Below are positions 31,550 through 43,713 of a stretch of 44,531 nt of DNA, one piece after another (the first letter of the stretch is position 1; each line of letters starts with the position of its first letter). Origin of the DNA: a virus (Duplodnaviria; Heunggongvirae; Uroviricota; Caudoviricetes). The notes beneath the pieces were generated by a model, which saw only the letters and a list, made by a program, of their open reading frames with translations, was not told the DNA's origin and searched no databases. The DNA is taken from the IMG/VR virus record IMGVR_UViG_3300034980_000290, one strand, 5' to 3'. A program made the translations under genes and the position numbers.

Positions 31550-31760
31550 GAAGCCAGAGCAGACGGAAGCACAGGCGGCGGAGGCCAAGAAGGTCCAGGT
31601 GTGTGGTGCCTTGGTGCCGCACATGGAGGGCATTCTGGGCAACGAGCATCCCCACCTGGGCATCCAGGGCAAGGCGTTCGGCGATGACCAGGTCGGCTTT
31701 GACAACTGGGTCGCCGCCGTCACGTCCGAGTTCTATGACAGGGTCTACGGTGGCGCGTAG
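31521..31760 (+). CDS. Hypothetical protein
   Basis: GTG start with GGAG RBS; 79 aa. Confidence 0.6.
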   Translation: MAKKTQDSGKKPEQTEAQAAEAKKVQVCGALVPHMEGILGNEHPHLGIQGKAFGDDQVGFDNWVAAVTSEFYDRVYGGA

Positions 31761-32721
31761 TCTCAAGCTGGCATTCGTCTTCCCTTGGCCGAGGGAAAAG
31801 ACCGTGGTGTCCCACCCCGAGCAGTTCTGCTCAGGTGGGTGCTGGTCGCTCATCCATGCTCTGCGTCTGCTTGGTCACCAGGTCTCGCCGGTCAACATGT
31901 ATGACGACAACAACGAGGTCAACGACCCCAAGGCCGCTGAGCAACTCCGCCACCTCCCTGAGCTAACCGAGTTGGATGCCGTGCTGGTGTTTGACACGGG
32001 CAGGGCCAAGATCAACTGGCATTCGGTGTCGGGCAGGGAAGACCTGCCCATCATCTATCACGCCGGTGATGATCCCATGCGGCACGACGCCAACACGGAT
32101 GCTATCGCCAGCGGTCATTTCGATGCCGTGCTCTGTGCGCAGCGCCCCTTCGTAGAGAAGTACGCCATGATGGAGGGCATTCAGGGGGCTGAGTGGATGC
32201 CCTACCACCATGACGGACTGCTGCACTTCCCCGAGCCGCTCATCAAGGACGAGCATCAGGTGGTGCACTCAGGCAAGGTGTACGGTCTGCGTGAACCTAT
32301 GCTGGAGGCGTTTATCGTCGCCGGGTTGCGCGTACATTGTACCAGCCAGTGGGGGCACGCCTACCGAGCTTCGCTATGCAGCGCCACCGTGGGGTGGCAT
32401 CAGGCATGGTGCGCAGAGGTGGGCTACCGCCACTTTGAATGGCCAGCGATGGGCAAGCTGCTCATCTGCGATGGACTGGAAGAGGAGTACGGGCTGAATG
32501 AACTATACCCCGACGGTACCATCGTCACGTATAGTGGGGCGAGCGACGAGGATAAGATTGGTGACGCCACCAGCAAGATCCTTCACTACGCCAACCCGGC
32601 CAACAAAGCCGAGCGAGATGCTATCGCCGCTCGGGGCCGTGATCATTCTCTGCTCCACCATGGCCCCCTCGCACGGGCCAAACAGCTCGTCGACTTCACA
32701 ATCCGTAACTTCGGATCATAA
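31750..32721 (+). CDS. Glycosyltransferase, GT-B fold, CgeB/Glyco_trans_1_2-like
   Basis: C-terminal YRASL...YRHFEWPAMGKLLICD...AERDAIAARG...HH...RAKQL pattern. Confidence 0.75.
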   Translation: MARSLKLAFVFPWPREKTVVSHPEQFCSGGCWSLIHALRLLGHQVSPVNMYDDNNEVNDPKAAEQLRHLPELTELDAVLVFDTGRAKINWHSVSGREDLPIIYHAGDDPMRHDANTDAIASGHFDAVLCAQRPFVEKYAMMEGIQGAEWMPYHHDGLLHFPEPLIKDEHQVVHSGKVYGLREPMLEAFIVAGLRVHCTSQWGHAYRASLCSATVGWHQAWCAEVGYRHFEWPAMGKLLICDGLEEEYGLNELYPDGTIVTYSGASDEDKIGDATSKILHYANPANKAERDAIAARGRDHSLLHHGPLARAKQLVDFTIRNFGS

Positions 32722-32722
32722 T
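32695..32722 (+). promoter_or_regulatory. Sigma70-like promoter for the RNA locus
   Basis: TTCACA-N16-CATAAT; the spacer ATCCGTAACTTCGGAT is itself an inverted repeat. Confidence 0.45.
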
Positions 32723-32728
32723 CAAGCT

Positions 32729-32999
32729 CTTGCTGGCACTTTCAGGGTGAAGCTGCTGGCTGTCGCGGCGATTGCCGGGCGTCATCAGTGGGGAATAGCA
32801 AAGCCAATCAAATCGCGTACCCTGCGTCGTGGTGACTGCGACGTAAACCAAGTCACTCCAGATTCTGAGCACAGTGCATATGTCGATCGAGACCAGTGGC
32901 AAGGCCCGCGCTGCCCGGTTCATGCCGGGCCGGGGTGAGCCCGGCGAGGTAAATGCGCCTGGAGCGCCGCCCCCGTTGCACTGGCGGGGGCATCCTCAC
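32729..32999 (+). ncRNA. Candidate structured non-coding RNA(s): H-type pseudoknot plus four-way-junction domain
   Basis: About 270 nt gap with no credible CDS; pseudoknot at 32825-32856; multibranch domain at 32893-32984. Confidence 0.55.
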
Positions 33000-33077
33000 G
33001 ACCCCGTAGCTCAGTTGGTAGAGCACCAGGATGCTAACGCGCCTGGAGGTCCCTGGTTCAAGTCCAGGCGGCGGTCA
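33000..33077 (+). tRNA. tRNA-like gene with 11-nt anticodon loop and bulged acceptor stem; isotype unassignable
   Basis: GACCCCG-TA-GCTC AGTTGGTA GAGC-A-CCAGG ATGCTAACGCG CCTGG-AGGTC-CCTGG TTCAAGT CCAGG-CGGCGGTC-A; no encoded CCA. Confidence 0.8.
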
Positions 33078-33119
33078 TCATGCTGTAATCAAATCGTATG
33101 CCAGTGGTAGGAGACCAAC

Positions 33120-33689
33120 ATGGCCTGGGTGGCGACAGTGAGCGGGGCCAGGATCGATTACCCCGATACCGACCCGGAGCAGATCCGGATCGAAGACATA
33201 GCCCATGCGCTGAGCCGCATGCCGCGATGGGCAGGCCACACCACTTTCCCGGTCAGTGTGGCCCAGCACTGCCTGAACTGCTCGGCAGTAGCAGAGCCCA
33301 AGGACCAGCTCGCAGCACTGCTGCACGACGCCAGTGAGGCGTACATCGCCGACCTACCCAAGCCCTTCAAGATGGTGCTCCCAGAGTACAAGGACCTTGA
33401 AGGTGCCATCATCATCGCCCTTGAGAAGAGGTTCGGTCTCACTATCATGACTGAAGGGGTGCATGAAGTGGATGCCCGCATGCTGAAGACAGAGCATGTG
33501 TTGTTCTGCCCCCAGGCCCACATTGATGCGGCCAAAGAAGACCCATACCTCGCTGGGCTGGTGCCCTACGAGCGTGAAGCATTGACCCTCCCTGGTGAGA
33601 CCGGGTGGCGGTTGGCGCGAGCCCTGTACCTTGAGAGGTTCAGGGAGAAGACAGGCGAGGACTTTGACATGGGGTTGCTACCACAATGA
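33120..33689 (+). CDS. HD-domain deoxynucleotide hydrolase (YfbR/DatZ-like)
   Basis: IEDIAHALS...RWAGHT, SVAQH, ALLHDASEAYIADLPKPFK, VDARML. Confidence 0.85.
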   Translation: MAWVATVSGARIDYPDTDPEQIRIEDIAHALSRMPRWAGHTTFPVSVAQHCLNCSAVAEPKDQLAALLHDASEAYIADLPKPFKMVLPEYKDLEGAIIIALEKRFGLTIMTEGVHEVDARMLKTEHVLFCPQAHIDAAKEDPYLAGLVPYEREALTLPGETGWRLARALYLERFREKTGEDFDMGLLPQ

Positions 33690-39732: not shown

Positions 39733-39990
39733 ATGCTGCACCTTGAAGACGTAGAAGCACAACTCGCAACTCTGGTCAAACGGCACGCCAAGTTGCGTAG
39801 CCGCCTCAAACAGAGCATTGACATGCGATCAGCAGCCGTTGAAGACCCGGCAAGCTGCCCACCCCCATCGCTCGAAATCACCCGCCAGCGCATGCAGCAG
39901 GAGGAGTCCATCGAGCAGCAGATGTACGGCATGGCGTTGACCATCAAGACACTGCGATGGGTGCTTGGCGAGGAGGAGAAGCCCATATGA
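39733..39990 (+). CDS. Coiled-coil hypothetical protein
   Basis: 85-aa ORF, ATGA-coupled to queD. Confidence 0.7.
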   Translation: MLHLEDVEAQLATLVKRHAKLRSRLKQSIDMRSAAVEDPASCPPPSLEITRQRMQQEESIEQQMYGMALTIKTLRWVLGEEEKPI

Positions 39991-40427
39991 GGCACTGCAC
40001 GCGCAAGATCGAGTTTGATGCGGGGCACCGGGTGCACGGCCATGAGAGCAAGTGCGCCCGGTTGCACGGTCACCGCTATGTGCTGGAAATCACCGCAGCC
40101 GCCCCTGAGTTGGACGGCATAGGCCGGGTGGTTGACTTCTCGGTGCTCAAGGGTATCCTGGGGCGCTGGGTGGATGAAACCTGGGACCACCGCACCCTAC
40201 TGTGGGAAGATGACGACATCTTGGGCAGCCACACGGATCCGCCGTGGTTTGAGCAGCATGCTGGGTTTGTCCGTGTGCCCTTCAACCCCACCGCCGAGAA
40301 CATGGCGGCGTACCTGCTTGACTTCTTCGGGGACCTGCTCCTCACCGCTGGCGTGGATGTGACCATCACCAAAGTGAGAGTGTACGAGACGCCCAACTGC
40401 TGGGCAGAGAGCGAACTGGCTCAATGA
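39987..40427 (+). CDS. queD: 6-carboxy-5,6,7,8-tetrahydropterin synthase
   Basis: FDAGHRV, KCARLHGHRY, DFSVLK, DH, PTAENMA, VYETP. Confidence 0.95.
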   Translation: MRHCTRKIEFDAGHRVHGHESKCARLHGHRYVLEITAAAPELDGIGRVVDFSVLKGILGRWVDETWDHRTLLWEDDDILGSHTDPPWFEQHAGFVRVPFNPTAENMAAYLLDFFGDLLLTAGVDVTITKVRVYETPNCWAESELAQ

Positions 40428-41203
40428 GCAAACTTGTCATCACAGAAAGCTTCCACGCCGTACAAGGCGAGGGTGTTTGGACCGGCCACCCATCATTCTT
40501 TCTGCGCACGGCTGGCTGTGGTGTCAAGTGCCCCGCTTGTGACACAATCTACTCCTGGAACAAGGAGCGGCCAGACGGTGTCGCCTCCGGCCAGTATATG
40601 GAGATCGACAGCGACGACATCGTTATGCAGATCGTGGAAAGCGGCCTTCGTTTTGTCGTTGTCACAGGCGGTGAGCCCGCCGAGCAGGCCGCCGAACTGC
40701 TGGATGTTGTTCAGCACTCACAGATGGTTCGGCGCTGGTTCACGATTGAGACCAGTGGCAACGTGGCCTTCGACCCAACGCCCTACCACCTCCTGAGCTG
40801 CTCACCCAAGATGAGCGGGATGATGCGCCGACAGGTGGGCAACGAGCGGTACACCGGCCATTTGCCGCAGATGATCCATGCCATGCTGGCGGCTGGCAAA
40901 CTTGTTCAACTCAAGTACGTCATCACCAACGAACAGGACTTCTTGGACGCCAAGAATCTCACATGGGCTGTGGTGCCGCAAGATTGCCGCAGGAACGTGA
41001 ATGTCCTGTTCCAGCCGAACAATGCGCCGTTCGTGGAAGCAGCGCGTGAACAAGAGCTTGCTGATTACTGCGCTAACCTGCGCCAGCTTACGGAAGCGTT
41101 CACCACCGACGTAAAGAAGGGTGGCATGTGGGAACACTTCCCGCTTGTCAGGCTCCAGGTGCAGCAGCACTGGCTATCCCACGGCAGGGAGAAGGGCACA
41201 TGA
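40424..41203 (+). CDS. queE: 7-carboxy-7-deazaguanine synthase (radical SAM)
   Basis: ESFHAVQGEG, FLRTAGCGVKCPACDT, VTGGEP, IETSG, CSPK. Confidence 0.93.
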   Translation: MSKLVITESFHAVQGEGVWTGHPSFFLRTAGCGVKCPACDTIYSWNKERPDGVASGQYMEIDSDDIVMQIVESGLRFVVVTGGEPAEQAAELLDVVQHSQMVRRWFTIETSGNVAFDPTPYHLLSCSPKMSGMMRRQVGNERYTGHLPQMIHAMLAAGKLVQLKYVITNEQDFLDAKNLTWAVVPQDCRRNVNVLFQPNNAPFVEAAREQELADYCANLRQLTEAFTTDVKKGGMWEHFPLVRLQVQQHWLSHGREKGT

Positions 41204-41796
41204 GATCAATGATCAAGGAGGTGCGGCCAGGGCTGCGCCTTCACCAATACTGGGGAATCACACCTGTGACCGAAAAAGAGTTTGATTTTCACACATTCTC
41301 GCAGCGGCACGCGGTGTGGATCAACCACAACTTCCCCACCACCACCCCATGGGAACAGGTGACTGGTGTGATGGAGGAAGCCGGGGAGTTGGCCCACGCC
41401 ATCCTGAAGCGCCAGCAGGGCATCAGGGGTACCAAGGAGGCGTTGGAAGCTGAGATGCAGGACGCCATTGGCGACCTGCTCATTTACTCCAACGGCGTCT
41501 GCCGCTTGCAGGCATGGCCCGCTGGCCACATCATCTTGGACACCATTGAGGCGTTCACACCCAAGGGGTTCGACATCCCCCGCATCCTGGCACGCATCAA
41601 CCACTCCCAGTCGGAGTTGATGATCAACCACGTGGGCAACAGCCTGAGCACGTGCCAGAAGGCAGTCCAAGAGCTGGTGCACTGGCTGTGTGAGCTGTGC
41701 CACTTGGAAGGTTGGAACATCATCGAGATCTTGGCCACGACGTGGCACGGGGTCGTTGAGAAGCGAGACTGGAGGGAGAGGCCCAATGGCGGATGA
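41200..41796 (+). CDS. MazG-like nucleotide pyrophosphohydrolase
   Basis: EEAGELAHAILK...DAIGDLLIY, plus a second degenerate helical repeat ending VEKRDW. Confidence 0.8.
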   Translation: MRSMIKEVRPGLRLHQYWGITPVTEKEFDFHTFSQRHAVWINHNFPTTTPWEQVTGVMEEAGELAHAILKRQQGIRGTKEALEAEMQDAIGDLLIYSNGVCRLQAWPAGHIILDTIEAFTPKGFDIPRILARINHSQSELMINHVGNSLSTCQKAVQELVHWLCELCHLEGWNIIEILATTWHGVVEKRDWRERPNGG

Positions 41797-42007
41797 TGAA
41801 GTCCCGGACGGCATGCCTAATACTGGCGGCATGGCCGAGCAGATGGCGAACATCAAGTCCATGACGGCTCAGTTCGAGCTCTGGGCAGAGACCAGTGCTT
41901 ACTTCGCCAAGCTGACCAAGGTTCGTTTCGATCAATACATCGAAGTGGGCTTCACTAAAGAACAAGCCTTGGAGATCATCAAGGCCAGAGGGGTATCATT
42001 CGGATGA
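41786..42007 (+). CDS. Small phage hypothetical protein
   Basis: 73 aa with YIEVGFTKEQALEI; GGAG RBS. Confidence 0.7.
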   Translation: MADDEVPDGMPNTGGMAEQMANIKSMTAQFELWAETSAYFAKLTKVRFDQYIEVGFTKEQALEIIKARGVSFG

Positions 42008-42777
42008 GCATTCCACTTATGGAGCGCAATCTGGCCCATGTCGTGCTGCTCTCGGGCGGCGCCGACAGCGCCACTGTCCTGGGCATAGCGGCGGCCAAGG
42101 TGGCAGCAGAGCGCGAGGCAGGGCGCACCAGCAAGCTGATCGCCTTCCACTGCAACTACGGCCAGATCACCGAGATGAGGGAGTTGTCATGCTTCCGCTC
42201 TCTGTGCGAACACTACATGATTCCGAACGAACACCGGTACGTGGTGGACATTGGATTCCTCAAGCAGATCGGCGGCAGTAGCCTCACCGACGCTTCTGTG
42301 GCGGTGGAGTCGGATGGTGATGCGATTGTCAACGCCCGAGTGCCCACCAGCTACGTGCCGTTCAGGAATGGCAACCTCCTCAGTATCGCTGCCGCCGTCG
42401 CTGCCAAGCATGACGCCACCGACATCTGGTGTGGTGTGGTAGATGAGGATGCCAGTGGGTACCCGGACTGCCGCCCCGCCTTCATCGAGTTCATGGAGGC
42501 CGCCATCAACGCCGGGCTCCCTGACGGCCACGACATCGTGATCAACGCACCGCTCATCAACGCCAAGAAGGATCAGATCATCCAGGCTGGCAATGAGATG
42601 TCGGTGCCCTACGAACTGACCTGGTCTTGCTACCAGGGTGACCAAGAGGCGTGCGGGGTTTGTGACTCATGCCGCCTGCGTGTTGCCAGCTTCCTCAAGC
42701 TGGGGCTGGATGACCCCATCAAGTACAAGGACTACGAAGCGGCGAAGGTCGCTGCCCAGGTTGCGATGCCAAGCTGA
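42004..42777 (+). CDS. queC: 7-cyano-7-deazaguanine (preQ0) synthase
   Basis: LLSGGADS, NYGQ, YVPFRN, YPDCRP, TWSCY, CGVCDSCRLR; no glutamine amidotransferase domain. Confidence 0.95.
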   Translation: MSIPLMERNLAHVVLLSGGADSATVLGIAAAKVAAEREAGRTSKLIAFHCNYGQITEMRELSCFRSLCEHYMIPNEHRYVVDIGFLKQIGGSSLTDASVAVESDGDAIVNARVPTSYVPFRNGNLLSIAAAVAAKHDATDIWCGVVDEDASGYPDCRPAFIEFMEAAINAGLPDGHDIVINAPLINAKKDQIIQAGNEMSVPYELTWSCYQGDQEACGVCDSCRLRVASFLKLGLDDPIKYKDYEAAKVAAQVAMPS

Positions 42778-42806
42778 AATCGTTCCCCGGGGGTAAGTGG
42801 CGAGCA

Positions 42807-43109
42807 ATGATCTGCGAGAAGTGCAAGACCCAGTACGTAGATGAACACGCTTGTCCGACCAAGTTCAAGGTGGGGGTTGACTTCAAAGGGTTGAGAGCTG
42901 TGGCAGAAGCTGCCACAGCTACGGATGAGATGTTCGAAGACTTCATGAAGCTGAAGGAACTCCTGGCCAAGCAGAATGAAGCTACCATAGCGATGGTCAA
43001 AGGGAAAGAAAAGCCACGTGGCCGCCGAGCCAGGATGACAGAGGAGGCTGTAGAGGGCATGGAAGTCAGGGGCAACATCGAGGACGGTACAGCGTACATT
43101 GGCACATGA
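42807..43109 (+). CDS. Hypothetical protein with N-terminal zinc knuckle
   Basis: MICEKCKTQYVDEHAC. Confidence 0.65.
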   Translation: MICEKCKTQYVDEHACPTKFKVGVDFKGLRAVAEAATATDEMFEDFMKLKELLAKQNEATIAMVKGKEKPRGRRARMTEEAVEGMEVRGNIEDGTAYIGT

Positions 43110-43116
43110 GGAACCT

Positions 43117-43713
43117 ATGAAAGAGCATTGGCCGGAACCAGTAAACTTCAGTCCCAACAGGGCTCGCCTTGAGGCTGCCTACAAGGAAATCTTGGAGTCT
43201 CTGCTTCCCGGCATGTGGGACACTGATGTCAACACCAAGGACACTCCAGCCCGTGCCGCGAAGGCCATGTGTGAGCTGACTGCGGGGTACGGCAAGAACC
43301 CTGAAGAGATCATCACCGTATTTGAGGAAAAGAAGTACGATCAGATCGTGCTGGTGAGGGGCATTGGATACTATTCACTCTGCGCCCACCACCTGCTCCC
43401 CTTCTTTGGTGAGGTGAAGATTGCCTACATCCCCCACGGGAAGGTGCTGGGACTCAGCAAGTTCGCCAGGATGGCCAACCTCTACGCCCGGCGGCTCCAA
43501 ATCCAGGAGCGCATGACACAGCAGATCGCCCTTGCCATCGAGACGCAGCTCAAGCCCAAGGGGGTGATGGTGCAGGTGACCGGCACCCATCTGTGCATGA
43601 GCATGAGGGGGGTGGAGTGTCCCGGTGCTGAGACGCTCACACAAAGCATCTCAGGGTGCTTTGAGAATGAGCCCGAGGCAAGAGCGGAGGCAATCGCACT
43701 ATTTCAGCAGTAG
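43117..43713 (+). CDS. folE: GTP cyclohydrolase I
   Basis: DTPARAAK, SLCAHHLLPFFG, GLSKFAR, RRLQIQERMT, HLCMSMRG. Confidence 0.97.
   Translation: MKEHWPEPVNFSPNRARLEAAYKEILESLLPGMWDTDVNTKDTPARAAKAMCELTAGYGKNPEEIITVFEEKKYDQIVLVRGIGYYSLCAHHLLPFFGEVKIAYIPHGKVLGLSKFARMANLYARRLQIQERMTQQIALAIETQLKPKGVMVQVTGTHLCMSMRGVECPGAETLTQSISGCFENEPEARAEAIALFQQ

What the first reader, a model, noticed from the sequence alone, without database searches (positions are those of the whole stretch)
33000..33080. Near-perfect tRNA body with an 11-nt anticodon loop and a bulged acceptor stem
Seen: canonical U8-A9, D arm, 5-nt variable loop and T arm (TTCAAGT). The anticodon loop is ATGCTAACGCG (11 nt rather than 7), the acceptor 3' strand has an extra C (33072), and it ends A-TCA rather than CCA. 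The anticodon and T stems use the same pentamers (CCAGG/CCTGG), so alternative pairing is possible. The intact elbow with both functional ends disrupted suggests a tRNA mimic (decoy for anticodon nucleases or tRNA-sensing defences, or a processing tag releasing the upstream RNAs) rather than random decay. It has no GUN anticodon, so it is not a queuosine substrate.
Basis: partly seen in the sequence, partly recalled or inferred. Interest (0 to 1): 0.7.

Follow-up and report, generated by a model that had tools for sequence, protein, structure and literature searches.

The report
Non-decoding tRNA look-alike in a phage
A marine-type phage keeps a gene for a tRNA-shaped RNA whose codon-reading loop is closed off, joined to the end of a longer conserved RNA; evolution preserves its shape, so it is a working tRNA mimic (most likely an RNA-processing handle) and not a broken tRNA.

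Summary
Positions 33000-33077 (+) form a cloverleaf that passes Rfam's tRNA threshold (44.3 bits; cut-off 29). ARAGORN rejects it. It is the only tRNA-like gene in the complete 112-kb phage genome. An independent ENA assembly is identical here, so it is not an assembly error.

I found one relative, a 1.1-kb Logan contig whose neighbouring proteins are 60-78% identical. It carries the same element at the same place.
- Five stem pairs are changed on both sides and none is broken.
- The elbow nucleotides are intact.
- The anticodon loop is again oversized, 10 nt against 11 nt.
- In both sequences the loop folds shut: 5 bp, a bulged A, 2-3 more pairs, then a 4-5-nt loop.
- The acceptor bulge and the shared stem pentamers occur only in the window.

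The roughly 270 nt upstream are co-conserved as structured RNA. More distant relatives carry real tRNAs (Pro, Leu) and a tmRNA at this same gene junction.

Best reading: a non-decoding tRNA module that is recognised by tRNA-processing enzymes and marks RNA ends, like a t-element or mascRNA. A decoy role is not excluded. The function is inferred, because no RNA data were available.

Other agents in this scan noted similar anticodon-remodelled phage tRNA mimics on other DNA, but not this family.

The parts
32695..32722 (+). Sigma-70-like promoter candidate (TTCACA, 16-nt spacer, CATAAT). It overlaps the stop codon of the upstream glycosyltransferase gene and would start transcription near 32729.
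   Evidence: Consensus scan, 10 of 12 matches. This is a pattern match only. It cannot be checked in the relative, because that contig begins at the first conserved block.
32732..32999 (+). Conserved structured non-coding RNA upstream of the tRNA-like module. It has four blocks of exact identity to the relative: 32732-43, 32788-99, 32809-22 and 32929-48. The last block is a hairpin with loop GUGAG.
   Evidence: Of seven exact-match runs of 9 nt or more between window and L005, six lie in the 345-nt RNA island (four in this stretch, two in the tRNA-like module) and one lies in about 700 nt of coding DNA. Alignment. No Rfam family matches.
32969..32991 (+). Hairpin 8 nt before the tRNA-like module. 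The stem covaries with the relative. The loop UUGCACUGG is conserved and is complementary to 32872-32878.
   Evidence: Window stem GCCCCCG/CGGGGGC against L005 stem GCCUACAC/GUGUAGGC. Loop and partner are UGCACUG/CAGUGCA in the window and GUCACUG/CAGUGAC in L005, so two pairs covary (read).
33000..33077 (+). tRNA-shaped module: acceptor stem (bulged C at 33072), D arm, anticodon arm closed into an extended helix, 5-nt variable loop, T arm and discriminator A. No encoded CCA.
   Evidence: RF00005 44.3 bits. Cloverleaf is the MFE fold. Homologue in L005 at 270-345 scores 56.7 bits. Compensatory pairs.
33031..33041 (+). The 11 nt between the anticodon-stem strands: bulged A (33031), pairs 33032-34 with 33039-41, loop UAAC (33035-38).
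   Evidence: strand folding of the whole module and of the arm alone. L005 shows the same architecture: bulged A, pairs U-A and C-G, loop UGCAU.
33087..33096 (+). Motif AATCAAATCG between the module and the next gene. It repeats 32806-32815 inside the upstream RNA. Related AAAATCG motifs sit ahead of the next gene in L005 and L022.
   Evidence: The other genomic copies lie inside coding sequence. Its role is unknown.
33120..33689 (+). First gene downstream: HD-domain deoxynucleotide monophosphate phosphatase-like protein. Its start codon is 42 nt after the discriminator (33077), and no terminator lies between them.
   Evidence: phrog_318 E 1.4e-49. No terminator-like site between 33077 and 33120.

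Best explanation
The element is a conserved, non-decoding tRNA-shaped RNA module. It keeps everything that gives a tRNA its L shape: acceptor stem, D arm, T arm, the G18/G19 and T-loop elbow, U8-A14 and G15-C48. Its anticodon loop has been turned into a closed helix with a 4-5-nt loop, so it cannot read codons.

It sits at the 3' end of a roughly 270-nt conserved structured phage RNA, and its discriminator base is 42 nt ahead of the start codon of the HD / glycosyltransferase / 7-deazaguanine operon.

Most likely it is recognised by the host's tRNA-processing enzymes. RNase P would cut at 33000. RNase Z or an exonuclease would trim after 33077, possibly followed by CCA addition. This would fix the 3' end of the upstream RNA, separate it from the downstream mRNA, and release a stable tRNA-like by-product. 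Plant mitochondrial t-elements and the MALAT1 mascRNA work this way.

Shown: the fold, its conservation, the closed loop and the co-conserved flanks. Inferred: transcription, cleavage and every functional consequence.
For: 1. It is a real tRNA-family fold.
2. It is not an assembly error.
3. A homologue sits at the same position in L005. Pairs 2-71, 7-66, 29-41, 49-65 and 50-64 are changed on both sides, 6-67 changes to a wobble, and none is broken (and direct reading).
4. Both members have non-canonical loops of 11 and 10 nt that fold shut in the same way.
5. The discriminator differs (A against G) and neither encodes CCA, G3.U70 or G-1. A fixed amino-acid identity is therefore unlikely.
6. 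The upstream 270 nt are more strongly conserved in blocks than the neighbouring genes, and contain covarying hairpins.
7. Only 6-8 nt separate the last upstream hairpin from position 1 of the module. No terminator follows the module.
8. tRNA-like, non-canonical cloverleaves are documented processing signals for RNase P and RNase Z (PMC1920247). A bacterial tRNA-like Y RNA domain is cut by RNase P and receives CCA (PMC4201824).
Against:
- Only two family members are known, so covariation rests on a single comparison.
- A pure processing signal would not obviously need an intact D arm and a maintained, extended anticodon helix. That suggests the whole L shape is read by something.
- The window's acceptor stem has a bulged C, which could weaken RNase P recognition.
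- The base before the predicted cleavage site is C or A, not the U that bacterial RNase P prefers (the preference is stated from general knowledge).
Confidence: 0.4

Rival explanations
1. Decoy or sponge. The stable tRNA-shaped RNA binds and titrates a host factor that recognises the tRNA body. Candidates are a tRNA-targeting defence nuclease or toxin, a tRNA-modifying enzyme, or a tRNA sensor. The closed anticodon would make it uncleavable and keep it out of translation.
For: - The full L shape, including the anticodon helix, is under selection, which is more than RNase P needs.
- Relatives carry real tRNAs and a tmRNA at the same junction. This site therefore holds translation-related or counter-defence cargo.
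- Phage tRNAs are proposed to counter tRNA-targeting defences (PMC10264068).
Against: - The loop sequences of the two members share only the initial AU, and both are predicted to be helical. An anticodon-loop-specific nuclease would have nothing conserved to bind.
- The phage encodes no partner such as Ro60, RtcB, a CCA-adding enzyme or PTH2.
Confidence: 0.25
2. Decaying pseudogene of a phage tRNA, for example a former Phe, His or Pro tRNA. The anticodon loop suffered small insertions and no function remains.
For: - ARAGORN rejects it.
- The window copy has an acceptor bulge and scores lower than the relative, 44 against 57 bits.
- Relatives have genuine tRNAs at this junction.
- The nearest real tRNAs are only about 70% identical.
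Against: - Two lineages whose flanking proteins are only 60% identical keep every stem pair, through five two-sided changes.
- Both also keep all tertiary-pair nucleotides.
- A neutral sequence would have lost the fold at that divergence.
Confidence: 0.1
3. A genuine decoding tRNA with an unusual anticodon loop. One version is a tRNA-Ser(GCU)-like molecule from which a 4-nt insert at position 37/38 is removed. Another is a reader of extended codons.
For: With introns allowed, ARAGORN formally calls the window copy tRNA-Ser(gct) with a 4-nt intron at 37/38. It calls the relative 'tRNA-???' with a 4-base anticodon tgca.
Against: - The two calls disagree with each other.
- No reading gives a shared anticodon, or a U33 with a purine at 37, in both members.
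- There is no long variable arm for Ser identity.
- A 4-nt insert cannot form a bulge-helix-bulge splice motif.
- The phage has no RtcB-type ligase.
- The discriminator base is not conserved.
- Open reading frames in the window read normally in table 11.
Confidence: 0.05
4. The roughly 350-nt composite (structured RNA plus tRNA module) is a ribosome-directed or tmRNA-replacing RNA. The tRNA handle would bring the upstream domain to tRNA-binding machinery.
For: - In relatives L002 and L038 the syntenic position holds a tmRNA.
- The upstream RNA has covarying hairpins and a candidate pseudoknot.
- In both members an open frame ends at the UGA in the conserved GUGAG loop.
Against: - ARAGORN and Rfam find no tmRNA.
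- There is no G3.U70 alanine identity.
- The module is a complete closed cloverleaf, unlike a tmRNA tRNA-like domain.
- There is no sequence similarity to the relative's tmRNA.
- The phage has no SmpB.
- The peptide of the open frame is not conserved.
Confidence: 0.06

Closest known systems
t-elements of plant mitochondria, and the MALAT1/MEN-beta mascRNA-type tRNA-like 3' processing signals
   Same: Each is a non-decoding cloverleaf embedded in a longer transcript, directly abutting another RNA's end. Each is recognised by RNase P and RNase Z to create the neighbour's termini (PMC1920247). The anticodon region is free to degenerate while the acceptor and T arms are kept.
   Different: Those are organellar or eukaryotic. 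This element is in a bacteriophage, and no cleavage has been shown. This one also keeps a near-perfect D arm and a maintained, extended anticodon helix.
Ordinary phage-encoded tRNAs, including those with anticodon-loop substitutions proposed to evade host anticodon nucleases (PMC10264068)
   Same: It is phage-borne and belongs to the tRNA family by covariance model. It sits at a genome junction where relatives carry real tRNA-Pro(UGG), tRNA-Leu(UAA) and tmRNA genes.
   Different: Those keep a 7-nt loop and decode. This one has 10-11 nt that fold into a helix, and no anticodon is shared between members.
Bacterial and phage Y RNA-like YrlA (Rfam RF02553)
   Same: It is a non-coding RNA with a tRNA-mimicking domain. 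M. smegmatis YrlA is cut by RNase P and receives CCA (PMC4201824).
   Different: YrlA is encoded next to a Ro60/Rsr gene, and its tRNA-like domain is wired into a long terminal stem. This phage has no TROVE protein. RF02553 does not match. The module is a self-contained cloverleaf.
tmRNA (RF00023)
   Same: It is a structured RNA joined to a tRNA-like part, and a tmRNA occupies the same gene junction in two relatives.
   Different: There is no tmRNA call. Alanine identity is lacking. The module has D and anticodon arms that tmRNA lacks. The order of the domains also differs.

Membership tests
tRNA (Rfam RF00005) | Cloverleaf with acceptor, D, anticodon and T arms scoring above the family's gathering threshold | tested here: met
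   44.3 bits against a cut-off of 29. The relative scores 56.7 bits.
tRNA (functional decoder) | 7-nt anticodon loop with U33, a 3-nt anticodon and a purine at position 37 | tested here: not met
   The stem strands are separated by 11 nt (window) and 10 nt (L005). Both are predicted to be closed into extra pairs. ARAGORN in default mode makes no call.
tRNA (functional decoder) | Conserved aminoacylation identity (discriminator base, acceptor-stem determinants) and a CCA end | tested here: inconclusive
   The discriminator is A in one member and G in the other. There is no G3.U70, no G-1 and no encoded CCA. CCA could be added after transcription. Charging is not testable here.
Intron-containing tRNA | Insert at position 37/38 that forms a splice motif and leaves a consistent mature anticodon in relatives | tested here: not met
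   ARAGORN -i gives Ser(gct) with a 4-nt insert for the window only. The relative gives a different, non-canonical reading. The phage has no RtcB.
tmRNA | tmRNA covariance or ARAGORN call, G3.U70 acceptor pair and a tag reading frame | tested here: not met
   No call. Pair 3-70 is C-G. No similarity to the syntenic tmRNA of L002. No SmpB.
Y RNA-like YrlA | Match to RF02553 and a neighbouring Ro60/Rsr (TROVE) gene | tested here: not met
   No RF02553 match at E up to 10. No TROVE domain in the complete genome.
t-element / mascRNA-type processing signal (functional class) | Non-decoding tRNA-like fold directly abutting the end of another conserved RNA or mRNA | tested here: met
   A 6-8-nt linker separates the conserved upstream hairpin from the module. 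The next start codon is 42 nt after the discriminator, with no terminator between.
t-element / mascRNA-type processing signal (functional class) | Transcript ends mapped to the RNase P and RNase Z sites of the element | not testable with these tools
Phage PTH2-linked tRNA-mimic cassette (noted elsewhere in this scan) | A peptidyl-tRNA-hydrolase-2-like gene next to the mimics | tested here: not met
   No PF01981 match in the complete genome. The neighbours are a glycosyltransferase and an HD phosphatase.
attP / integration-site tRNA fragment | A phage integrase, and a tRNA segment identical to a host tRNA | tested here: not met
   No tyrosine integrase. The genome has direct terminal repeats. 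The nearest real tRNAs are about 70% identical.

The most novel reading that the evidence does not exclude
The 350-nt composite may be a new class of phage RNA. In it, a non-decoding tRNA handle would dock a structured effector domain onto tRNA-binding machinery such as the ribosome, EF-Tu, a tRNA-sensing defence or a tRNA-modifying enzyme. It would functionally replace the tRNA/tmRNA cargo that related phages carry at the same junction.
Probability: 0.08. Interest if true: 0.85.

Novelty: new variant of a known kind. Interest (0 to 1): 0.5.

Why it matters
Phage tRNA genes are usually explained by codon supply or by replacing tRNAs that the host destroys. Here the tRNA shape is preserved while decoding has been deliberately closed off, and the shape is tied to a second conserved structured RNA. 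So the shape itself must be the useful part. If processing is confirmed, this would show that phages use tRNA-like punctuation for non-coding RNA maturation, as organelles and eukaryotic nuclei do. If the RNA instead binds a host factor, it would be a compact natural tRNA decoy. In either case such elements are invisible to standard tRNA finders and are left unannotated.

Tried and rejected
Searches for more family members all came back empty.
- Exact or degenerate pattern scans of IMG/VR with the tRNA body found nothing.
- Scans with the upstream blocks found nothing.
- The 19-nt hairpin gave 8 hits. Seven lie in GC-rich coding sequence. L009 lies in an AT-rich intergenic context, but its locus shares no protein similarity with the window and holds no tRNA-like element.
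- One metagenome scan returned only an ordinary tRNA-His(GUG) with the same D arm and anticodon stem.
- One scan of prokaryote genomes returned a single hit with no synteny. About 1.4 hits are expected by chance, so I treated it as chance.
- Protein-guided searches used the HD phosphatase, the 377-aa neighbour and the glycosyltransferase. They gave one true relative (L005) and a set of more distant phages without the element.

Isotype ancestry is unresolved. The best matches are tRNA-Phe, Met, Ile, Asn and His at 70-83% identity.

The AATCAAATCG repeat is not a genome-wide promoter motif, because its other copies are in coding sequence.

A reading of blocks 32792-32819 as an ECF-type promoter found no second copy in the genome.

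Neither is reproduced in the relative. The loop pairs better with 32872-78.

Full report
**What is there.**
The window is the last 44.5 kb (minus strand) of a complete 112,303-bp IMG/VR phage genome with direct terminal repeats. It encodes:
- a replication module: split DnaE, DnaB, primase, UvsX and SbcCD;
- a run of glycosyltransferases;
- FolE/QueD/QueE/QueC genes.

A 398-nt gap lies between a glycosyltransferase gene (31603-32721) and an HD-phosphatase gene (33120-33689). Rfam's tRNA model scores it 44.3 bits against a cut-off of 29, with the excess nucleotides placed as an insertion in the anticodon loop and two mismatches in the acceptor stem. With a bulged C33072 all seven acceptor pairs are Watson-Crick.

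ARAGORN finds no tRNA or tmRNA anywhere in the genome. The Rfam tRNA model finds only this one.

**Not an artefact.**
An independently assembled ENA contig of the same phage is 100% identical over 32722-33125.

**Conservation.**
The closest relative I could find is a 1,140-bp Logan contig (L005). Its HD protein is 60% identical, and the start of its next protein is 78% identical. It carries a homologous element 89 nt before the HD start codon, scoring 56.7 bits on RF00005.

Compared with the window:
- Pairs 2-71, 7-66, 29-41, 49-65 and 50-64 have changed on both sides and remain paired.
- Pair 6-67 became a wobble.
- No pair is broken (plus direct reading).
- U8, A14, G15-C48, G18, G19, A21 and the T-loop U54-U55-C56-R57-A58 are intact in both.

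The anticodon loop of L005 is also abnormal, at 10 nt (AUCUGCAUGA). Only the leading AU is shared with the window. In both RNAs the minimum-free-energy fold is the cloverleaf (z about -2.6). In both, the 'loop' closes in the same way: five stem pairs, a bulged A, then three pairs plus UAAC in the window, or two pairs plus UGCAU in L005.

So the codon-reading end is closed off in both lineages, while the arm keeps roughly its normal length.

Three features are not conserved:
- L005 has a perfect 7-bp acceptor stem, so the bulge is specific to the window.
- The discriminator is A in the window and G in L005.

Neither member encodes CCA, G3.U70 or a G-1.

**Surroundings.**
The non-coding stretch before the module is conserved too. 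Of seven exact-match runs of 9 nt or more between the two loci, six lie in the 345-nt RNA island and one lies in about 700 nt of coding sequence. The blocks in the upstream RNA are 32732-43, 32788-99, 32809-22 and the 20-nt hairpin 32929-48.

The hairpin at 32969-91, which ends 8 nt before the module, has a covarying stem and a conserved loop. In each sequence that loop is complementary to a segment about 100 nt upstream, with two covarying pairs. No Rfam family matches this RNA.

A sigma-70-like promoter match sits at 32695-32722. No terminator separates the module from the HD gene.

**The junction is a hot spot for RNA genes.**
In more distant relatives the content between the glycosyltransferase gene and the HD or 377-aa gene varies:

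| Locus | Content at the junction |
|---|---|
| L038 | tRNA-Pro(UGG), tRNA-Leu(UAA), start of a tmRNA |
| L002 | tRNA-Pro plus tmRNA |
| L022 | tRNA-Leu(UAA) plus a terminator |
| L003, L026, L035-L037 | no RNA gene |

The window's island shows no sequence similarity to the L002 tmRNA. The nearest real tRNAs to the module are about 70% identical. They are a tRNA-Phe(GAA) of the L002 phage and a metagenomic tRNA-His(GUG). Its ancestry is therefore open.

**What it is not.**
The complete phage genome has none of the following: Ro60/TROVE, RtcB, a TGT/DpdA-family match, a CCA-adding enzyme, PTH2, SmpB or a tyrosine integrase.

This removes several readings as supported options:
- the Y RNA reading;
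- the splice-and-ligate reading;
- the PTH2-cassette reading noted elsewhere in this scan;
- a phage-supplied trans-translation partner;
- attP.

ARAGORN with introns allowed formally calls the window copy 'tRNA-Ser(gct) with a 4-nt intron at 37/38'. There is no long variable arm, and L005 gives an unrelated reading, so I regard this call as formal only.

**Mechanism.**
The shown facts are these:
- The L shape is under purifying selection.
- The anticodon is shut.
- No aminoacylation identity is conserved.
- A conserved structured RNA is attached on the 5' side by a 6-8-nt linker.
- An operon follows on the 3' side.

These fit a tRNA-like processing and end-defining element best. That is the role documented for t-elements, which are non-canonical cloverleaves cut by RNase P and RNase Z to make neighbouring RNA ends (PMC1920247). 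It is also compatible with what a tRNA-like Y RNA domain undergoes in mycobacteria (PMC4201824).

I put this at about 0.4. A role as a body-shape decoy for a host tRNA-binding factor is about 0.25. It is favoured by the maintained anticodon helix and disfavoured by the lack of any conserved loop sequence. The pseudogene, odd-decoder and tmRNA-like readings are each 0.1 or below.

That the element is a real, conserved, non-decoding tRNA-shaped RNA I hold at about 0.85. The caveat is that this rests on a single relative.

**Novelty and context.**
Phage tRNA-like genes with remodelled anticodon arms have been noted repeatedly by other agents in this scan on other genomes (those notes are unchecked). 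This family was not among them, and it lacks the PTH2 neighbour described there.

I found no paper describing a phage tRNA mimic fused to an upstream structured RNA. The recent structural families of bacterial tRNA mimics have a different connectivity.

I class it as a new variant of a known kind, of moderate interest. The main open question is what the composite RNA does.

Noticed in passing
window 39957-43713 and the whole genome (G000): The phage encodes QueD, QueE, QueC and FolE-like genes, but the complete genome has no PF01702 (TGT/DpdA) match. How the 7-deazaguanine base would be installed is unclear. A very divergent DpdA could have been missed.
   Followed up: partly
L002 4637-5224; L038 1577-1892: Related phages carry a tmRNA at the syntenic junction, directly upstream of the HD gene. 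In L002 ARAGORN predicts the tag GKTNKVLGGAARFRKGVGSRLALVA. The tmRNA is preceded by tRNA-Pro(UGG), and in L038 also by tRNA-Leu(UAA).
   Followed up: partly
L022 2562-2637: The tRNA with anticodon UAA at the syntenic site of a TARA Oceans relative has only a short variable region (class-I shape). Bacterial tRNA-Leu normally has a long variable arm, so its amino-acid identity is uncertain.
   Followed up: no
window 33035-33045 against L038 1595-1605: An 11-nt identity (TAACGCGCCTG) links the 3' part of the window's expanded loop plus stem with the D-stem / anticodon-stem junction of the syntenic tRNA-Pro of L038. A T-arm match follows 12 nt closer in the window. This could hint that the odd loop arose by recombination or deletion between tandem tRNA genes. 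E is 0.09 in a small comparison, and the match is not shared by L005.
   Followed up: partly
window 32806-32815 and 33087-33096: The direct repeat AATCAAATCG flanks the segment from the middle of the upstream RNA to the end of the tRNA-like module. Similar AAAATCG motifs precede the next gene in L005 and L022. Its function is unknown.
   Followed up: partly
G000:C1:42980-43100 (outside the window): A tandem array of about four copies of a 17-20-nt unit (GCCGAAACAAATCCCGTGCC-like) occurs elsewhere in the phage genome.
   Followed up: no
window 32498-32938; L005 2-199: In both members an open frame runs through the upstream RNA and stops at the UGA inside the conserved GUGAG hairpin loop. The encoded peptides are not conserved, so this is probably incidental.
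   Followed up: partly
L021 1500-1574 (phage of L002): The tRNA-Phe(GAA) of the related phage has A33 instead of the universal U33 and scores low for a tRNA (49.7 bits). It is the real tRNA most similar to the window's module, at 71% identity.
   Followed up: no
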